IMG/VR virus record: IMGVR_UViG_3300045988_034846
Coordinates: 1 to 38,199 of that record
DNA length: 38,199 nt
From: a virus
Reading direction: 5' to 3' (one strand)
The position numbers and the translations under genes are program-made. Below, piece by piece: positions 1 through 13,721 of this stretch. The notes below the pieces were generated by a model. The model worked only from the letters and a program-made list of their open reading frames with translations, was not told where the DNA came from and did no database searches. Positions within the stretch are counted from its first letter, which is position 1. Every line of letters begins with the position of its first letter.

Positions 1-110
1 AAGTCCCACTGCCGGCACTATTTGCAAAACCCCGTAAATCCAAGATTTTCAGTAAAATCAAGGGTTTGCGGGGTTTTTCTTTACTTACAATCTTTCAAAA
101 AATTAAAGAA
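1..110 (+). repeat. Left copy of an exact 110-bp direct terminal repeat (att core, or overlap of a circularly assembled genome)
   Basis: Bases 1-110 are identical to 38090-38199. The repeat begins in a tRNA-like T-loop/acceptor 3' strand (AAGTCCCACTGCCGGCA) and continues through a hairpin terminator. Confidence 0.95.
26..78 (+). terminator. Rho-independent terminator of the target tRNA gene (inside the att repeat)
   Basis: AAAACCCCGTAAATCC (26-41) pairs with GGGTTTGCGGGGTTTT (62-77), including two G-U wobbles. A T-run follows. Confidence 0.6.
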
Positions 111-130
111 ATTAGGGTATTTTTAAGAAA

Positions 131-151
131 AATTTGCCCCGAATTTGCCCC
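131..151 (+). promoter_or_regulatory. Two tandem AATTTGCCCC motifs 11 bp apart (candidate integrase arm-type sites, P' side)
   Basis: AATTTGCCCC occurs at 131-140 and 142-151. The same motif pair, in the same orientation, occurs at 38015-38035 on the other side of the core. Confidence 0.5.
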
Positions 152-155
152 GCCC

Positions 156-1148
156 TTACTTTGAGATTTCAGCTATATATTGACTGGCAAATTCCATCAT
201 ATCTCTTTCTTTATCGGCTTGAGCATGACGGTATACTCTCTTCATGACATTGTCTGAGCTCCAACCACCGGCACGCATGATATAGCTGTCCGGTATGCCA
301 AGTGAGTGAGCCATCGAAGCGTAATAGTGACGCAGGTCATGGAATCTAAAGTGTGGCAAACCTATACGCTTCTGCAAGGCCGATAGATTATCCCACAGGT
401 TAGTTGGATATCCTGCATAGCCTTTGCCCTGAATGCGGAGTAGATCGGCCGTGTAATCGTCTATGTATATCTTCCGTGTAGACTCATCCGTCTTGGCAAA
501 ATTCTTTAGTACAAGTTTGTTATCCTTGTTCTTGACAATGGACTTGTTGATAGCCAGCATATTTCCCTCAAGATCATCGGCAGTCACAGCACATACTTCA
601 GACCGTCTCATGCCATATACTCCTAGACGCAGAGCTAATTCATACGATGTACCTTTGGAAGCTTCGAGTATCTTCTTGATGTCGTCATCGGTCGGCTCAT
701 ACGGCACATAGCGCTCGCCAAGCGGTAAAGTGGTAGTGAGCTTAAGGTCCGGGCGGTACATAGCCACGATGGGCGATATAAAACCGTGGTAATTCTTTAC
801 TGTTTTGGCTTTTCTCTTCAAGGCTATCCTGTTAATTTCTGCCTGCACATCAGCAGAGGACAAGTCTTTCATTGGAATATTCAAAAAATCTTCACTCATC
901 GAACGCACCATAGCATCATATGAGCGCACAGTGGACGGAGAAAGGACATTTTCTTTAATGGCTATATACTGCAAGGCACAGCTCTTAAAAGTTCCCTGTG
1001 CGGCGCTGGAAGGCTTTTCAGCATATATTTTAGAAAGCACCTCGTCCACTTCCCGCTTACTTGGGAAGTGGTCAAATATAATGCGGTGCATCTTTCCGTC
1101 AATCATCTTACGGACTCGGTAGCCACTATTTTTTTTCTCAACTTTCAT
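156..1148 (-). CDS. int: Tyrosine integrase
   Basis: 330 aa. Catalytic signature is visible: R in GMRRSEV, H-x-x-R in HDLRHYY, and Y in KRVYRHA. The gene directly abuts the att core, and an SD (AAAGGAGGA) precedes the ATG. Confidence 0.9.
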   Translation of the reverse strand: MKVEKKNSGYRVRKMIDGKMHRIIFDHFPSKREVDEVLSKIYAEKPSSAAQGTFKSCALQYIAIKENVLSPSTVRSYDAMVRSMSEDFLNIPMKDLSSADVQAEINRIALKRKAKTVKNYHGFISPIVAMYRPDLKLTTTLPLGERYVPYEPTDDDIKKILEASKGTSYELALRLGVYGMRRSEVCAVTADDLEGNMLAINKSIVKNKDNKLVLKNFAKTDESTRKIYIDDYTADLLRIQGKGYAGYPTNLWDNLSALQKRIGLPHFRFHDLRHYYASMAHSLGIPDSYIMRAGGWSSDNVMKRVYRHAQADKERDMMEFASQYIAEISK

Positions 1149-2173: not shown

Positions 2174-2794
2174 CTAGAAATTACGAATCAGTTGTATTAC
2201 TTTTCCTAATATTCTGACTGGCATTGTGTCTATCTCTGACTGGCTAAATCTCATTGGCTCGTAAGCCGGATTAGTTGGGATAAGTGCAAGGCCCTCAGCA
2301 TATCTTTGCAATCGCTTACAGGTGGCATCAGAGCCATTAACTAGGGCTATAACTAAATCCCCAGTATCAGCTTCATCAGTTTTTTGAACGACGACTGTAT
2401 CACCATCTCTTAACTCAGGTACCATACTGTCGCCTTTAATTAAGAGAGCGAATAGCTCACCTCTACGCTTGAGTGCAGGCGATACTTCAATACTGCCGAT
2501 TATTTCCTCAACAGCTTCTTTTCCGTAGCCTGCTGCCACACGGCCAAGAACTGGAATACTATAGGTTAAGTCCAACTGTGTAGGCTCTATTCCATCGAAC
2601 CCCAGCAATTCGCTTGGAGTCGTGCGCAGTGCTTTGGCAAACTCACGTATTTTTGATTCAGGAATATCGACAACGCCACGTTCTATTTTTGCAATAGAGG
2701 AGCGGTCTTTATATCCGGTAAGACTAGCTAAAGTGTCTTGAGACATTTCAAGAGCATTTCTACGCTCTTTAATATTCTTATAAAGTTCGAGCAT
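2174..2794 (-). CDS. CI-like repressor: XRE HTH plus LexA-type S24 autopeptidase domain
   Basis: 206 aa. It has an N-terminal HTH (MSQDTLASLTGYKDRSSIAKIERG), a LexA-type cleavage site (GRVAAG), the catalytic Ser in GDSM and the catalytic Lys in TCKRL. Confidence 0.9.
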   Translation of the reverse strand: MLELYKNIKERRNALEMSQDTLASLTGYKDRSSIAKIERGVVDIPESKIREFAKALRTTPSELLGFDGIEPTQLDLTYSIPVLGRVAAGYGKEAVEEIIGSIEVSPALKRRGELFALLIKGDSMVPELRDGDTVVVQKTDEADTGDLVIALVNGSDATCKRLQRYAEGLALIPTNPAYEPMRFSQSEIDTMPVRILGKVIQLIRNF

Positions 2795-2880: not shown

Positions 2881-2909
2881 TTGACACAAATTCACACTAG
2901 TGATATAGT
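2881..2909 (+). promoter_or_regulatory. Candidate rightward early promoter
   Basis: TTGACA (2881-2886), 17 nt spacer, TATAGT (2904-2909), with a TG at the extended -10 position. Confidence 0.65.
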
Positions 2910-4179: not shown

Positions 4180-4452
4180 ATGACAAGAGAGGAAAGAATC
4201 AGGGAAACCCTTGAAAAGGTAATGAAGATTAACGAGGGCAGTTCAATGCATACACCATTTGTCCATTTGGAAGTGACCGGAGGATATGTTGATAGCATGA
4301 ACGTTACTATATTCCCAGACGGATGGCACGGAATAGGTGACACTAAGGCAGACATGTGCTTAGTTTATTTCGACGCATTCGACGAAAATGAATACATGAG
4401 AATACACGCAGAATTAGACAAGCTTATAGAAGAAAAGGAGAAAACATGTTAG
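4180..4452 (+). CDS. Hypothetical protein
   Basis: 90 aa. SD is AAAGGAAAG. It overlaps the next gene's start. Confidence 0.55.
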   Translation: MTREERIRETLEKVMKINEGSSMHTPFVHLEVTGGYVDSMNVTIFPDGWHGIGDTKADMCLVYFDAFDENEYMRIHAELDKLIEEKEKTC

Positions 4453-5309
4453 AAGTACAGATTAGCAGAAACAACGGAACTATAGATTTTAATTTCGAGG
4501 ACTTAAAGGACGCTCTTACAGCAGAGCTCGAGCTTTACAAGAACTTGGTCTTCACGGAAGACACAAAAGCAGATGCAAAGAAGACTGTAGCAGAGCTCAG
4601 AAAGCTCAAGAAGCAGATTAACGACAAGAGAATAGAGGTCAAAAAGCTCTACATGCAGCCATACACAGACTTCGAGGCAAAGGTTAAAGAGCTGGACAAG
4701 CTTATTAATGAACCAATCACTTACATCAGTGAGCAGATTGATGCATTCGAGCAGAAGCGCATCGAGGAAAAGATAGAGCTTATCAATGACATTTACCTTG
4801 AGCTTGTATCCGAAAGAGAAGATATAGCAGGATATGCAGAGCTCAACAGGGTATACGACAGCAAGTGGGAGAACACATCCACATCAAAGAAGACTATACA
4901 GGAAGCAATCACCAACTATCTTGATGGTGTAGCCAATGACATAGCAGCTATTAAGAGCATGGAATCAGAATACGAGACCAAAGCTCTTATGAGATATAAA
5001 GAGACCGGTGTACTGTCAGATGCACTTCTCACTATCAGACAGTGGGAAAAGCAGAAAGAGGAAATTCTCAAGGCTGAGGAAGAGAAGCAGAAACAGGAAG
5101 CTCTCAAGGCTGAGGAAGAGAAACAAGCAGAGGCCGAAGCTGATGAGATACTTGATGCACTGGAGCCTGTGGAGGAGTTCATAGAGCCAACCGAAAAGAA
5201 CGACATTATGAAGTTGGCAAGATACGAGGTCAAGGTTGATCCATTCCAGCAGACACAGCTTGAATGTTATATGCAGGAGTGTGGCATCCAGTACAGGAGG
5301 TTAGATTAA
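4446..5309 (+). CDS. DUF1351-like protein (recombination-module partner of ERF/RecT in Firmicutes phages)
   Basis: 287 aa. The N-terminal region and the position directly upstream of ERF are typical of DUF1351. It has an acidic coiled-coil repeat, KAEEEKQKQEALKAEEEKQ. Confidence 0.6.
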   Translation: MLEVQISRNNGTIDFNFEDLKDALTAELELYKNLVFTEDTKADAKKTVAELRKLKKQINDKRIEVKKLYMQPYTDFEAKVKELDKLINEPITYISEQIDAFEQKRIEEKIELINDIYLELVSEREDIAGYAELNRVYDSKWENTSTSKKTIQEAITNYLDGVANDIAAIKSMESEYETKALMRYKETGVLSDALLTIRQWEKQKEEILKAEEEKQKQEALKAEEEKQAEAEADEILDALEPVEEFIEPTEKNDIMKLARYEVKVDPFQQTQLECYMQECGIQYRRLD

Positions 5310-6900: not shown

Positions 6901-7218
6901 ATGGATTTAGAGAGAATACCGGTCGGGCATCGGAATGCCATGAGCAGACCATCCAACCCGAACGATGATAGACGGCTCCGGGAGCAGATTGAGAAAGCCA
7001 ACAACAACGGTGATTGTATCATCAATGTTGGAGACGGCTACTACAGACCGGACCCGAACGACATAGAGGATGAAGTTGAGTTCAACGAGTATATGGCTAA
7101 GGAGCTTCATCGAGCGAGAGCGATTCAAAAGAAGAGGCTCTCAATGAAATTGACATACGAAAGGTGGCGAGAAGTTGGAGTACTTATTAATTATACCGGG
7201 CAAGCTGCCGAACCTTAA
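6901..7218 (+). CDS. Hypothetical protein
   Basis: 105 aa. SD is GAAAGGAG. No domain recognised. Confidence 0.55.
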   Translation: MDLERIPVGHRNAMSRPSNPNDDRRLREQIEKANNNGDCIINVGDGYYRPDPNDIEDEVEFNEYMAKELHRARAIQKKRLSMKLTYERWREVGVLINYTGQAAEP

Positions 7219-7552
7219 CGACTACATCAGTGCAGAGAGAGCCAATAAGTACAAGGGGGCTAAACTCAAGGGAGAGTCGGAGGACATCGTGACAAGATGC
7301 ATCCGGCAGCAGTTGAAGGGGGTACACATTACCAAGCCTGTGAGCATGACTTATGTTTGGCACGAGCCGAATAAGAGACGAGATCTTGACAACATATCAT
7401 CATTCGGGCGAAAGGTGATCCAGGATGCACTCGTCAATTCGGGAGTTCTTGAGAATGACGGTTGGCAGAACATTAGGGGGTTCAACGATGAGTTCAAAGT
7501 CTCAAAGGATGAACCAAGGATAGAAGTCCATATCTTCGAGGTGGAGCGATGA
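7175..7552 (+). CDS. rusA: RusA-family Holliday junction resolvase
   Basis: 125 aa with a TTG start. RusA-like core is KRRDLDNISSFGRKVIQDALVNSGVLENDGW. Confidence 0.8.
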   Translation: MEYLLIIPGKLPNLNDYISAERANKYKGAKLKGESEDIVTRCIRQQLKGVHITKPVSMTYVWHEPNKRRDLDNISSFGRKVIQDALVNSGVLENDGWQNIRGFNDEFKVSKDEPRIEVHIFEVER

Positions 7553-8247
7553 GAGAAAGTATAGTGTTCTATCGAAGTTTCTATGAGGCTATCAAAGAAC
7601 TACCTGCAGAAGAGTTTAGAAATGCAGTCATGGCAATAATGGAGTACGGACTCAACGATAGTGAGATTGATACATCCGGTGTAGCCAAAGCAATTCTGAT
7701 AATGGCAAAGCCTCAGATTGATAAGAATAACAAGCGCTACGAGAACGGCTTGAGAGGTGGAACTAAACCAAAGCAGAACCAAAACGGAACCAAAACAGAA
7801 CCAAGCCCAAACCAAACTGTAACCAAAGTCGAACCAACCCCGAACCAAAACGGAACCAAAACAGAACCAAAACGAACCAACCCCGAACCTAATGATAATG
7901 TAAATGATAATGATAATGTAAATGACATAAAAGAGAGTGTAGAGAAAAAGCCCCGCTTTTATCCACCCACCCTCGAAGAACTAAAAAAATATATAACTGA
8001 TAACAAGTACAACGTGGATCCTGAGCGATTCATTGATTATTACACAGCCAACGGCTGGACTGTTGGCAAGAATAGAATGAACGACTGGAAAGCAGCTGTT
8101 AGAAATTGGGACAGAAGCCAGAAATCTGACGGACGGATGAGGCAGGAATCGACCGCCAAAACCAAGTTTAGCAACTTCGAGCAGAGGTCTTATGACTACG
8201 CTGCACTTGAGTCAGCATTAGGAGGTACTAATGAGCAGACAGAGTAG
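7549..8247 (+). CDS. Putative replication initiator / replisome organizer
   Basis: 232 aa. The N-terminus (VFYRSFYEAIKELPAEEFRNAVMAIMEYGLN) and the C-terminal W-rich domain (YTANGWTVGKNRMNDWKAAVRNWDRS) resemble phage replication-organizer proteins. The central 11-aa repeats are encoded by the iteron array. Confidence 0.5.
   Translation: MRESIVFYRSFYEAIKELPAEEFRNAVMAIMEYGLNDSEIDTSGVAKAILIMAKPQIDKNNKRYENGLRGGTKPKQNQNGTKTEPSPNQTVTKVEPTPNQNGTKTEPKRTNPEPNDNVNDNDNVNDIKESVEKKPRFYPPTLEELKKYITDNKYNVDPERFIDYYTANGWTVGKNRMNDWKAAVRNWDRSQKSDGRMRQESTAKTKFSNFEQRSYDYAALESALGGTNEQTE
7766..7891 (+). repeat. Iteron array: 12 copies of (G)AACCAA at an 11-bp period
   Basis: AACCAA starts at 7766, 7777, 7788, 7799, 7810, 7821, 7832, 7843, 7854, 7865 and 7875, plus the variant AACCTA at 7886. 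Spacing is 11 bp apart from one 10-bp step. Confidence 0.9.
7891..7926 (+). repeat. AT-rich 18-bp tandem duplication next to the iterons (candidate DNA-unwinding element)
   Basis: AATGATAATGTAAATGAT followed by AATGATAATGTAAATGAC. Confidence 0.7.
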
Positions 8248-8479
8248 ACAAGGGCGCATGAATGCCCACTACTGGCAGAATGAGGTACAGAAAGCTCAGC
8301 TTGGCGACAACATAGCCAACCACATGGCGTATATCTTCATGGAGATTTTGTACGACAAGTTTGACCTGAGCTTCAGACAGCTCAAGAACTTTTACGACAG
8401 AGTGATTGAGCGTCGCAAGAAGTGGCAGAACGATGATGATCAGGAGCTGACATCAACCACGATGCTTGAATACTGCTAG
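8231..8479 (+). CDS. Hypothetical protein
   Basis: 82 aa. SD is GGAGGT. Confidence 0.55.
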   Translation: MSRQSRQGRMNAHYWQNEVQKAQLGDNIANHMAYIFMEILYDKFDLSFRQLKNFYDRVIERRKKWQNDDDQELTSTTMLEYC

Positions 8480-8506
8480 AAGAGAGACATCAAGGTTGTC
8501 GATTGG

Positions 8507-8824
8507 GTGAAGAAAATCCCAATGAGCCACAAGCTATATATGGCTGACCTTGGCAAGAATAGAGCAGTACTCGGAGCTGACCGAAACATAGAGTCGGCAC
8601 TTGTGGCTACGATGTTACTTACAATACCGGTACTCAAGCAGAGCTACAAGTTCAAGAACTCAGACATTCGCGAGTTCTTGAAATGGTGTGAGTATTTCAT
8701 CGACTCATATTGGAGAAAGCAGCCGTGCTGTAAAGACCATTATCTCAATGATGAGATGATACGTCAGCTCTTCATTGAGGAGGAACACTGGGACTTACTG
8801 AAAGGATGTGCAGTGTATGAGTGA
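8507..8824 (+). CDS. Hypothetical protein
   Basis: 105 aa with a GTG start (alternative ATG at 8522). Confidence 0.5.
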   Translation: MKKIPMSHKLYMADLGKNRAVLGADRNIESALVATMLLTIPVLKQSYKFKNSDIREFLKWCEYFIDSYWRKQPCCKDHYLNDEMIRQLFIEEEHWDLLKGCAVYE

Positions 8825-12918: not shown

Positions 12919-13452
12919 ATGGAGAGATTAACGATTAATGAGATAATTGAGCACTGCGACAGAAAAACAGAGATGTACGAAAAAACTTGTGATGTTAAGC
13001 ATCTCGAAACAACAACTATGAATAATCCTATAAAGGAGTATTGGGAGCATAAACAAGTTGCTGAATATTTAAGAAAGCTCAAAGATTACGAGGACTTAGA
13101 GGAACAAGGCAGACTTATTAAATTGCCTTGCAAGGTGGGAGATACAGTTTATGTAGATAACACAATACTCCCAATAGAAGATATGGAGTGTTATGAGGAT
13201 ATTGATAATAAGATTCCATTATATTTTCCAGCACGAGTTGTTTCATTCCGCTTTGCAAAAAGGAATTGGATGAAGATTGCAGTTAGAGAAAAATGGTTAT
13301 ATGAATGGATAGACGAGGAGACCGGACCGGATAGCAATTACATAGAGTGTGAGAAAAATTTTACGATTTCGTTGTCTAACATTGGCAAAACAGTATTCCT
13401 CACAAAATCCGAAGCAGAAGCGAAACTGAAAGAATTGAGAGGTGGAGAATGA
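12919..13452 (+). CDS. Hypothetical protein
   Basis: 177 aa. SD is GGAAGGA. It ends ...KLKELRGGE. Confidence 0.55.
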   Translation: MERLTINEIIEHCDRKTEMYEKTCDVKHLETTTMNNPIKEYWEHKQVAEYLRKLKDYEDLEEQGRLIKLPCKVGDTVYVDNTILPIEDMECYEDIDNKIPLYFPARVVSFRFAKRNWMKIAVREKWLYEWIDEETGPDSNYIECEKNFTISLSNIGKTVFLTKSEAEAKLKELRGGE

Positions 13453-13721
13453 CAATTAGTGAGTTTTTCAAAGAGAAATATTCAGCAAGAAAAGATAAAG
13501 ACAACATGTATGGCGTTGGCATGAGTGATGCCGAATTCCGGCACTTCATCATTGAGTATTTGTTACCGGACGGCTGGTGTGTCTCAGACCCACTTGGGCA
13601 GTCACAAATCAACGAAATAGCTATCAACGAAATTCTAACTAAGTATTCCAAGAAGTTTAGACAGGAGCGCAAGAAATGTTTAAAAGAATTGAGAGGTGGA
13701 AAAGATGAAGAAAGAAGTTGA
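13449..13721 (+). CDS. Hypothetical protein
   Basis: 90 aa. The ATG overlaps the upstream TGA. It contains ...LKELRGGKDEE. Confidence 0.55.
   Translation: MTISEFFKEKYSARKDKDNMYGVGMSDAEFRHFIIEYLLPDGWCVSDPLGQSQINEIAINEILTKYSKKFRQERKKCLKELRGGKDEERS

What the first reader, a model, noticed from the sequence alone, without database searches (positions are those of the whole stretch)
7766..7926. Helical-phase iteron array (12 x AACCAA at an 11-bp period) plus an AT-rich tandem repeat inside the replication-organizer gene: candidate origin
Seen in sequence: AACCAA recurs at 7766, 7777, 7788 and on to 7875, with a variant at 7886, at a strict 11-bp period (one 10-bp step). An 18-bp AT-rich unit repeated twice follows immediately (7891-7926). 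Because 11 is not a multiple of 3, the motif cycles through all three reading frames, and the protein shows only a 33-bp (11-aa) periodicity (TKPKQNQNGTK/TEPSPNQTVTK/VEPTPNQNGTK). This argues that selection acts on the DNA, placing the sites on one face of the helix, rather than on the peptide. Established knowledge: many Firmicutes phages place ori iterons plus an unwinding element inside the replisome-organizer/initiator gene. Inference: this is the phage origin and the ORF product binds it.
Basis: partly seen in the sequence, partly recalled or inferred. Interest (0 to 1): 0.65.

Follow-up and report, generated by a model that had tools for sequence, protein, structure and literature searches.

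The report
Phage replication origin inside initiator gene
A strictly 11-base-spaced AACCAA repeat array followed by an easily melted AT-rich repeat, inside an uncharacterised (DUF6291) early gene of a 38-kb temperate gut phage, is most likely the phage's replication origin; this is the known "origin inside the initiator gene" design, in a protein family with no assigned function.

Summary
There are eleven exact AACCAA plus one AACCTA: ten steps of 11 bp and one of 10 bp (7766-7891). An exact 18-bp x2 AT-rich repeat follows (7890-7925). Both lie inside ORF 7549-8247.

The ORF is Pfam DUF6291, function unknown.

- Across 62 divergent relatives from several phyla, the stretch after the N-domain keeps AACC at exactly 11 bp (240 of 409 spacings), equally in all three codon phases.
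- Synonymous codons there are nearly fixed (AAC 92%, CAA 95%, ACC 70%, against 23-52% background).
- In close relatives the cores are conserved while spacers, and so the peptide, vary.
- The AT block is the second least stable 36 bp of the genome.
- The array encodes a disordered linker between a three-helix N-domain and a C-domain. That C-domain is also found fused to Phage_rep_org_N, HTH_36 and Lin1244_N.
- Relatives are often followed by DnaB or helicase-loader genes.
- Lactococcus phages Tuc2009 (gene annotated as containing the origin) and r1t carry AACC x4 at 11 bp in the same position.

Verdict: a new member of a known kind, moderately interesting. Binding and origin activity are untested. 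What reads the array is unresolved.

The parts
7549..8247 (+). Gene of the DUF6291-family protein (232 aa), the putative replisome organizer / origin-binding initiator
   Evidence: ORF. Pfam DUF6291, aa 4-73, E=3e-16. phrog_15768, function unknown. Architecture and context evidence.
7552..7743 (+). N-terminal three-helix domain (aa 2-65), ending in the conserved PQIDKNNKRYENG..GG stretch; the presumed DNA-binding head
   Evidence: AlphaFold2 pLDDT about 83, helices at aa 2-15, 20-36 and 45-65. Invariant residues P55, N60, N61, N66 and G70.
7755..7891 (+). Iteron array. One degenerate unit, then 11 x AACCAA and 1 x AACCTA, head to tail at 11 bp with one 10-bp step. Family consensus unit is rnAACCAAAnn. 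The coding strand is A/C-rich (63 A, 43 C, 15 G, 3 T).
   Evidence: for the window; for composition; for the family-wide nucleotide-level constraint.
7890..7925 (+). AT-rich tandem repeat (TAATGATAATGTAAATGA x2, i.e. AATGAT/AATGTA hexamers x6); candidate DNA-unwinding element
   Evidence: TRF, 100% identity. Second least stable 36-bp stretch of the 38-kb window, top 0.013% of positions. The same block lies 3' of the array in 45 of 53 relatives. Codons are fixed as AAT / GTA / GAT.
7747..7947 (+). Stretch encoding the predicted disordered linker (aa 67-133), which contains the array and the AT block
   Evidence: AlphaFold2 pLDDT 33-36 over aa 67-133.
7972..8121 (+). C-terminal helical domain (FxPPT...GW.VGKN.MKDWKAAVRNW), the presumed effector / recruitment domain. 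It has no Pfam model.
   Evidence: helices at aa 142-152, 158-167 and 180-191. 17,965 clusters at 50% identity match it. Its N-terminal partners elsewhere are DUF6291, HTH_36, Phage_rep_org_N and Lin1244_N.
2881..2909 (+). Promoter-like site (TTGACA-17-TATAGT, with TG) facing away from the CI-like repressor gene. It is the likely early promoter whose transcript runs through the array.
   Evidence: 11 of 12 consensus matches. Repressor at 2174-2794 (-). This is a consensus match only.

Best explanation
The 7755-7925 stretch is the replication origin of this 38,089-bp temperate phage, embedded in the part of the initiator gene that encodes the linker between its two domains. The proposed mechanism is inferred by analogy with lambda O, SPP1 gp38 and Tuc2009 Rep2009. 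Copies of an origin-binding protein, most likely the three-helix DUF6291 N-domain of the gene's own product, would occupy the twelve AACCAAA cores. Because the cores recur every 11 bp, the protomers would line up along one face of slightly underwound DNA and form a nucleoprotein filament. The stress would melt the adjoining (AATGAT/AATGTA)n tract. The C-terminal domain would then recruit a replicative helicase. In this phage that must be the host's, because no phage helicase, loader or primase gene was found. Shown here: the anatomy, the nucleotide-level conservation, the low duplex stability, the domain architecture and the gene neighbourhoods. Inferred: binding, melting, helicase recruitment and origin activity.
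For: 1. The array and AT repeat are real and non-random.

2. The constraint is on the nucleotides. Data are from 62 clusters (<=70% identity in the N-domain) from Lachnospiraceae, Oscillospiraceae, Bacteroidota, Campylobacterota phage, Erysipelotrichaceae and others.
- N in NQ is AAC 96/104 (background 52%).
- Q is CAA 99/104 (background 48%).
- T in TK is ACC 87/124 (background 23%).
- The preceding base is A in 112/123.
- In the AT block, N is AAT 238/266, V is GTA 107/121 and D is GAT 85/88 (all).

3. Successive AACC are exactly 11 bp apart in 240 of 409 cases. They fall in the three codon phases 136/167/165 times. The unit consensus is rnAACCAAAnn.

4. Among 13 close relatives, core columns vary in 6/72 and spacer columns in 26/54 (Fisher p=7e-7). 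Copy number changes by 33 bp (L013), and by 11 bp with a resulting frameshift (L016).

5. The AT block is the second least stable 36 bp of the genome. In 45/53 relatives the least stable 30 bp of the gene lies -10 to +60 bp 3' of the array.

6. The array encodes a disordered linker between two folded domains.

7. Replication context:
- Among the 88 ORFs lying one or two genes downstream in the sampled relatives, 6 hit DnaB_C, 3 IstB/DnaC-like, 2 G39P loader and 2 SSB.
- A Bacteroides prophage has its DUF6291 gene overlapping dnaB.
- The C-domain is shared with Phage_rep_org_N, HTH_36 and Lin1244_N proteins.
- Relatives carry Phg_2220_C, as r1t ORF11 does.
- Structural neighbours in BFVD include proteins named 'replisome organizer' and 'replication initiator'.

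8. Tuc2009 Rep, annotated 'contains origin of replication', has AACCAA/AACCAT at 7438, 7449, 7460 and 7471. r1t ORF11 has GGAACC at 7212, 7223, 7234 and 7245, followed directly by an AT-rich tandem repeat. The literature states that Rep2009 and TP901-1 ORF13 bind direct repeats within their own genes and that these serve as the origin (PMC8965321). The same is reported for SPP1 gp38/oriL with an AT-rich unwinding element (PMC6316719) and for lambda O (PMC7466680).

10. It is the only such array in the genome, and the DUF6291 protein is the only candidate initiator.
Against: - There is no experimental or read-depth evidence for this phage.
- GC skew follows transcription direction and says nothing about the origin.
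- The DUF6291 N-domain has no detectable relationship to any solved DNA-binding fold or to the r1t/Tuc2009 N-domain (hhalign probability 0.07%). Yet the same array follows both, and also occurs in non-coding DNA. The protein that reads the array may therefore not be this ORF's product.
- Two crude tests of co-variation between the N-domain motif and the array were not significant (p=0.57; p=0.06).
- The window itself has no helicase or loader gene next to the ORF.
- I could not read the primary Tuc2009 and r1t papers. Which repeats were shown to be functional there is therefore not verified.
- Other DUF6291 subfamilies carry different linker repeats.
Confidence: 0.72

Rival explanations
1. The array is a DNA-level element with a different job. 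Candidates are an autoregulatory operator or roadblock for the early transcript, a centromere-like site (plasmid R1 parC also uses 11-bp direct repeats; recalled from memory), or a conserved boundary sequence that promotes recombinational shuffling of N- and C-terminal modules between phages.
For: The nucleotide-level constraint fits any DNA-binding function. The same array is flanked by at least two unrelated N-domains and several unrelated C-domains, as expected of a recombination joint. The early transcript must cross the array.
Against: No partition genes were found in the genome. An operator or a recombination joint does not explain the tightly coupled low-stability AT block, or the match to the Tuc2009 gene annotated as containing the origin. 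Module shuffling is better seen as a consequence of a shared origin sequence than as its function.
Confidence: 0.12
2. It is only a low-complexity disordered protein linker rich in N, Q, T, K, E and P. The DNA periodicity would be a leftover of past slippage with no present function.
For: The stretch is predicted to be disordered. Its length varies among relatives. Polar, disorder-promoting residues have A/C-rich codons.
Against: Synonymous codons are fixed far beyond background in 62 divergent lineages. The period is exactly 11 nt, not a multiple of 3, in all three phases. The peptide varies while the cores do not. The same array occurs in non-coding DNA.
Confidence: 0.04
3. It acts in the mRNA, for example as an unstructured CA-rich tract or a protein-binding site that tunes translation or stability of the initiator message.
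For: The element is always transcribed and always in the same orientation relative to the gene, so DNA-level and RNA-level selection cannot be separated by orientation. The coding strand is strongly A/C-rich.
Against: No Rfam family matches. Arrays of the same core and period occur between genes and next to primase-helicase genes. The Tuc2009 and lambda precedents are DNA origins. An 11-nt period has a natural meaning for duplex DNA and none known for mRNA.
Confidence: 0.05
4. It is a contingency locus. Gain or loss of single 11-bp units would shift the reading frame and switch the full-length initiator on and off.
For: L016 lacks exactly one unit and its ORF stops 38 aa after the N-domain. 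Many database proteins of the r1t-type family end inside the repeat stretch.
Against: The units are imperfect (74% match), which disfavours frequent slippage. Almost all relatives are in frame. The truncations may be assembly errors. Switching does not explain the coupled AT block.
Confidence: 0.03

Closest known systems
Lactococcus phage Tuc2009 Rep2009 (orf16) with its intragenic origin, and the homologous r1t ORF11
   Same: The origin-type repeats lie inside the initiator gene, between an N-terminal domain and a C-terminal domain. The core (AACCAA / GGAACC) and the strict 11-bp period are the same (Tuc2009 at 7438/7449/7460/7471; r1t at 7212/7223/7234/7245). A second tandem-repeat block follows directly. 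The gene sits in the early module, near recombination genes and a RusA-type resolvase. Some DUF6291 relatives share r1t's Phg_2220_C C-domain.
   Different: The N-domain is not detectably homologous (hhalign probability 0.07%). There are 4 units there against 12 here. The second block in Tuc2009 is a GGATAG/GGTTAG repeat, and in r1t GATAAGAATAGATTA, rather than AATGAT/AATGTA. The window's C-domain is neither Rep_Org_C nor Phg_2220_C.
Bacillus phage SPP1 gp38 (replisome organizer) and oriL
   Same: gp38 binds direct repeats located within gene 38, next to an AT-rich DNA-unwinding element. It works with a loader (gp39) and a DnaB-type helicase (gp40) (PMC6316719). G39P-type loader and DnaB genes follow DUF6291 genes in some relatives.
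   Different: SPP1 has a second origin (oriR); this window has only one array. This phage encodes no loader or helicase. I made no sequence comparison with SPP1.
Phage lambda O protein and ori-lambda
   Same: Iterons plus an AT-rich tract lie in the middle of the initiator gene. Changes in iteron number change the length of the protein linker: 2 iterons correspond to 13 aa in Stx phages (PMC7466680), and 3 units correspond to 11 aa here.
   Different: Lambda has four to six iterons of about 19 bp with internal symmetry, not twelve contiguous 11-bp direct repeats. The proteins are unrelated and the host phylum is different.
Pfam DUF6291 (PF19808)
   Same: The N-domain matches at E=3e-16, above the curated cut-off. 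RefSeq names relatives 'DUF6291 domain-containing protein'.
   Different: The family carries no functional annotation, and no paper in the searched library mentions it. The link to an origin is made here.

Membership tests
Intragenic iteron-plus-unwinding-element origins of phage initiator genes (functional class: lambda O, SPP1 gp38, Tuc2009 Rep2009) | Array of direct repeats inside the initiator's own gene, in the inter-domain region | tested here: met
   Twelve units at 7755-7891 lie inside ORF 7549-8247. They fall in the predicted disordered linker, aa 67-133.
Intragenic iteron-plus-unwinding-element origins of phage initiator genes (functional class: lambda O, SPP1 gp38, Tuc2009 Rep2009) | AT-rich, easily melted tract directly beside the repeats | tested here: met
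   7890-7925 is the second least stable 36 bp of the 38-kb window. The same arrangement is seen in 45 of 53 relatives.
Intragenic iteron-plus-unwinding-element origins of phage initiator genes (functional class: lambda O, SPP1 gp38, Tuc2009 Rep2009) | Repeats are constrained as DNA, not as peptide | tested here: met
   Fixed synonymous codons. An 11-nt period in all three codon phases. Cores conserved while spacers vary.
Intragenic iteron-plus-unwinding-element origins of phage initiator genes (functional class: lambda O, SPP1 gp38, Tuc2009 Rep2009) | Gene lies in a replication module next to a helicase or helicase loader | tested here: inconclusive
   In this window the neighbours are Erf, NinB, RusA and small unknown ORFs, with no helicase or loader. 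Among 88 downstream ORFs of relatives, 6 hit DnaB_C, 3 IstB-like and 2 G39P. dnaB overlaps the DUF6291 gene in L246.
Intragenic iteron-plus-unwinding-element origins of phage initiator genes (functional class: lambda O, SPP1 gp38, Tuc2009 Rep2009) | The initiator binds the repeats specifically | not testable with these tools
   Needs EMSA or footprinting. The N-domain has no match to a solved DNA-binding fold.
Intragenic iteron-plus-unwinding-element origins of phage initiator genes (functional class: lambda O, SPP1 gp38, Tuc2009 Rep2009) | The fragment supports initiator-dependent replication or gives phage-encoded resistance | not testable with these tools
   An experiment is required.
r1t / Tuc2009-type replisome organizer proteins | Homologous N-terminal origin-binding domain | tested here: not met
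   hhalign of 62 DUF6291 N-domains against 15 r1t/Tuc2009-type N-domains: probability 0.07%, E=0.69.
r1t / Tuc2009-type replisome organizer proteins | C-terminal Rep_Org_C (PF06926) or Phg_2220_C (PF09524) domain | tested here: not met
   The window's C-terminal 99 aa have no Pfam hit. Relatives L001 and L100 combine DUF6291 with Phg_2220_C.
r1t / Tuc2009-type replisome organizer proteins | AACC-core repeats at an 11-bp period in the linker-coding DNA | tested here: met
   Seen in the window, in Tuc2009 and r1t, and in 5 of 15 clusters of that family.
Pfam DUF6291 (PF19808) | Match to the family profile above the curated cut-off | tested here: met
   59.8 bits against a cut-off of 27.2, aa 4-73.
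ParR/parC-type centromere with 11-bp direct repeats (plasmid R1; recalled from memory) | Adjacent partition genes (ParM/ParA-type NTPase plus adaptor) | tested here: not met
   No such gene appears among the annotated ORFs of the window. The element is an integrase-bearing temperate phage.

The most novel reading that the evidence does not exclude
The AACCAAA/11-bp array plus AT-rich block may be a portable origin cassette that does not depend on one cognate initiator domain. It follows DUF6291, the non-homologous r1t/Tuc2009 N-domain and other winged-helix-like N-domains. It also stands alone next to primase-helicase genes, in phages of several bacterial phyla. It may therefore be read through its geometry (phased A-tracts, a filament that imposes 11 bp per turn and underwinds the DNA) or by a common, possibly host, factor, rather than by sequence-specific iteron recognition as in lambda.
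Probability: 0.2. Interest if true: 0.7.

Novelty: new member of a known kind. Interest (0 to 1): 0.45.

Why it matters
If confirmed, it gives a function (origin-binding replisome organizer) to DUF6291, and indirectly to a very large C-terminal domain family that has no model (17,965 clusters at 50% identity). It also gives a simple sequence rule for locating origins in thousands of uncultivated gut and environmental phages: AACCAAA every 11 bp, followed by an (AATGTA/AATGAT)n or (AAAGAN)n block. Such origins are useful for marker-frequency analysis, for building shuttle or phagemid vectors, and for phage-encoded-resistance decoys. The same array occurs with unrelated initiator domains, which raises a testable question about how phased 11-bp arrays trigger melting.

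Tried and rejected
- GC and AT skew over the window only track transcription direction, so they are not informative for the origin.
- Rfam found no RNA family in 7000-8600.
- PDB searches by sequence and by fold found nothing significant for the protein.
- DnaA boxes are not enriched (12 found, 9.6 expected). The one at 7959-7967 sits on conserved FYPPT codons and is probably chance.
- There are no inverted repeats in or beside the array.
- The plasmid collection gave one hit, which is a Bacteroides prophage contig labelled as a plasmid. It is therefore no evidence for an autonomous replicon.
- The word-indexed homologue search, run with the r1t N-domain and the window's C-domain as short queries, returned few, mostly truncated, proteins and was of little use.
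- Tests of whether the N-domain subtype co-varies with the iteron type were not significant: a peptide regex on 60 representatives (p=0.57) and a DNA-level test on 62 clusters (p=0.06).
- A search for a general 7- or 11-aa, or 10-11-bp, phasing rule in other DUF6291 subfamilies was inconclusive. The 6-bp period of the second block dominates (for peptide lags; for DNA autocorrelation on L247-L326).
- The primary papers on Tuc2009 and r1t (PMC91272, PMC136552) are not held.
- Host identification failed. The nearest relatives in named genomes (about 50% identity) are in Lachnospiraceae, including Enterocloster and [Clostridium] asparagiforme.

Full report
**What is in the sequence**

AACCAA occurs at 7766, 7777, 7788, 7799, 7810, 7821, 7832, 7843, 7854, 7865 and 7875. 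AACCTA follows at 7886. That makes ten steps of 11 bp and one of 10 bp. A degenerate unit precedes the array at about 7755.

These are 11 of the 27 AACCAA matches in the whole window, where about 20 are expected by chance over 38 kb and both strands. Tandem Repeats Finder gives the same 74% match for period 11 and for period 33. The codon-compatible 33-bp register is therefore no better conserved than the 11-bp one.

TAATGATAATGTAAATGA x2, at 100% identity, follows at 7890-7925. The only correction is that no database calls the ORF a replication organizer.

**The gene and the genome**

The ORF matches Pfam DUF6291 (aa 4-73, E=3e-16) and phrog_15768, function unknown. It has no NCBIfam hit. RefSeq names relatives only "DUF6291 domain-containing protein". 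No paper in the searched library mentions the family.

Positions 1-110 equal 38090-38199, so the sequence is a circular genome of 38,089 bp. Its genes are:
- an integrase (156-1148, minus strand) and a CI-like repressor (2174-2794, minus strand);
- a strong promoter-like site at 2881-2909 facing rightward;
- an early operon with DUF1351, Erf, NinB, an HNH-like protein, RusA and the DUF6291 gene;
- then a PAPS-reductase-like gene, a DNA methyltransferase, regulators, terminase, portal and so on.

No helicase, loader, primase or polymerase gene was found. The DUF6291 protein is therefore the only candidate initiator. The array is the only one of its kind in the genome.

**Structure of the protein**

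AlphaFold2 gives a three-helix N-domain (aa 2-65, pLDDT about 83). A disordered stretch follows (aa 67-133, pLDDT about 34) that corresponds to the array and the AT block. A small helical C-domain completes the protein (aa 142-191).

There is no significant match to solved structures. In the viral predicted-structure library the neighbours are DUF6291 proteins. A few proteins named Lin1244-like, "replication initiator" or "replisome organizer" also appear. TM-scores are low because of the flexible linker.

**Is the constraint on DNA or on peptide?**

A blastn search hit the repeat stretch itself in Riemerella (Bacteroidota) and Nitratiruptor (Campylobacterota) phages. In both, a DUF6291 domain is followed by AACC-type repeats and AATGTAAATGATAAT repeats, and then by a different C-terminal domain.

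I then collected 160 loci from viral contigs and from genomes of many phyla. I reduced all 163 sequences in hand, including the window, to 62 clusters at 70% identity in the N-domain.

- **Synonymous codons in the post-domain stretch are almost fixed**. AAC is used for N in NQ 96/104 times (background 52%). CAA is used for Q 99/104 times (48%). ACC is used for T in TK 87/124 times (23%), and the preceding base is A in 112/123. In the AT block, AAT is used 238/266 times, GTA 107/121 and GAT 85/88.
- **The spacing is exact.** Successive AACC are 11 bp apart in 240 of 409 cases, and most of the rest are splits or doublings of 11. AACC falls in the three codon phases 136, 167 and 165 times. Forty-nine of 62 clusters have an array.
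- **The unit consensus is rnAACCAAAnn** in every phase.
- **Cores are conserved while spacers vary.** Among 13 close relatives the core columns vary in 6 of 72 and the spacer columns in 26 of 54 (p=7e-7). The peptide is therefore free to change while the cores are not. One relative lacks 33 bp. Another lacks one 11-bp unit and is frameshifted.

This excludes a purely peptide-level linker.

**The AT block**

It is the second least stable 36-bp stretch of the 38-kb genome, in the top 0.013% of positions. In 45 of 53 clusters with an array, the least stable 30 bp of the gene lies -10 to +60 bp 3' of the last core (median +14). The block is usually (AATGTA/AATGAT)n. In other clusters it is an A-rich (AAAGAN)n block, including in loci with 50-62% G+C.

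**Replication context**

- Among the 88 ORFs lying one or two genes downstream in the sampled relatives, 6 hit DnaB_C, 3 IstB/DnaC-like, 2 the SPP1 G39P loader and 2 SSB.
- In a Bacteroides prophage the DUF6291 gene overlaps dnaB.
- The window's C-domain has no Pfam model but matches 17,965 clusters at 50% identity. Among the best 149, the N-terminal partners are DUF6291 (65), HTH_36 (11; the N-domain type of the TP901-1 replication protein), Phage_rep_org_N (8) and Lin1244_N (5).

DUF6291 thus occupies the slot of known origin-binding domains in a modular replisome-organizer architecture.

**Link to characterised origins**

The Tuc2009 replication gene is annotated "contains origin of replication". 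It has AACCAA/AACCAT at 7438, 7449, 7460 and 7471, exactly 11 bp apart, followed by a GGATAG/GGTTAG repeat block. r1t ORF11 has GGAACC at 7212, 7223, 7234 and 7245, followed directly by an AT-rich tandem repeat, and it ends in Phg_2220_C. Some DUF6291 proteins end in the same domain.

The literature supports the class:
- Rep2009 and TP901-1 ORF13 bind direct repeats within their own genes, and these serve as the origin (PMC8965321).
- SPP1 gp38 binds repeats of oriL inside gene 38, next to an AT-rich unwinding element (PMC6316719).
- The lambda origin, with iterons and an AT-rich tract, lies in the middle of gene O, and iteron number changes the protein's length (PMC7466680).

I could not read the primary Tuc2009 and r1t papers.

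**What remains unclear**

The DUF6291 N-domain and the r1t/Tuc2009 N-domain show no detectable homology (hhalign probability 0.07%), yet both precede the same array.

Of these:
- 62 arrays lie just after a DUF6291 domain (median 5 aa);
- 13 lie after the r1t/Tuc2009-type domain;
- a few lie after other N-domains;
- 40 lie in short ORFs or intergenic DNA, and 13 of those abut a Toprim+AAA_25 primase-helicase gene.

Other DUF6291 subfamilies have different linker repeats. Two tests of co-variation between N-domain and iteron were not significant. The association of the array with replication genes is therefore strong. The identity of the protein that reads it is not established.

**Verdict**

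This is most likely the phage origin, built on the known plan of iterons plus unwinding element inside the initiator gene. The gene family is unannotated, and the iteron core and period match those in Tuc2009 and r1t.

It is a new member of a known kind. Its practical value lies in annotation and origin prediction. One open question is how a phased 11-bp array shared by unrelated initiators works. Origin activity, binding and melting are inferred, not shown.

Noticed in passing
window 1-110 and 38090-38199: An exact 110-nt terminal direct repeat. The window is a circular (or terminally redundant) assembly with a unit genome of 38,089 bp.
   Followed up: partly
window 129-151 and 38013-38035: AAAATTTGCCCC(G/A)AATTTGCCCC repeats lie 205 bp apart across the circle junction, next to the integrase gene (156-1148, minus strand). 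They are candidate attP arm-type integrase binding sites.
   Followed up: no
window 5046-5117: A 36-bp tandem repeat (89% identity) inside the DUF1351 gene, encoding EKQK.EE.LKAEE twice. It looks like a peptide-level coiled-coil repeat.
   Followed up: no
window 7959-7967: TTATCCACC, a DnaA-box consensus with one mismatch, lies 33 bp 3' of the AT block. Such boxes are not enriched in the window (12 found, 9.6 expected), and this one lies on the conserved F-Y-P-P-T codons, so it is probably chance.
   Followed up: partly
L016 about 4290-4300 (close relative); proteins P0121-P0163: L016 lacks exactly one 11-bp unit, and its ORF stops 38 aa after the N-domain. Many database proteins of the r1t-type family (115-175 aa) also end inside the repeat stretch. 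These arrays seem prone to single-unit slippage or to assembly errors.
   Followed up: partly
window 7948-8244 (C-terminal domain): The domain FxPPT..GW.VGKN.MKDWKAAVRNW has no Pfam, NCBIfam or PDB match, yet it matches 17,965 clusters at 50% identity. It is combined with at least four different N-terminal domains. It is a very common unmodelled phage replication module.
   Followed up: partly
L334 2557-2596 and similar loci (L336, L348, L362, L370, L371, L374, L400, L403, L404, L413, L421, L427): Intergenic AACCAAACC(A/T)A arrays at 11 bp, preceded by a GGTTTGGGTTGGTTG...CAAACCAAACCAACC hairpin, abut the end of a Toprim+AAA_25 primase-helicase gene. They are possibly origins of an unrelated phage group.
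   Followed up: partly
L344 9993-10090: The array unit AACCAAAATGA puts TGA in every reading frame. It is still followed by an AATGTAAATG block and an FEEFWKKY-type C-domain. This suggests a phage that reads TGA as a sense codon.
   Followed up: no
L416, L430, L436, L359, L378, L386-L388, L431: Non-coding AACCAAA arrays are flanked by conserved sequences (ttccaccgacaccgccatttcaataacc... and ...accttcacgcgcgcgcgtgggaatatc), downstream of a small conserved basic protein (MAKGKKTGGRQKG...) with no Pfam hit.
   Followed up: no
window 7743-7761, 13428-13446, 13682-13700: TTGAGAGGTGGA recurs three times (family D5). The two distal copies look like ribosome-binding sites before genes. The copy at 7743 lies inside the ORF just before the array, where it encodes the conserved G-L-R-G-G.
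   Followed up: no
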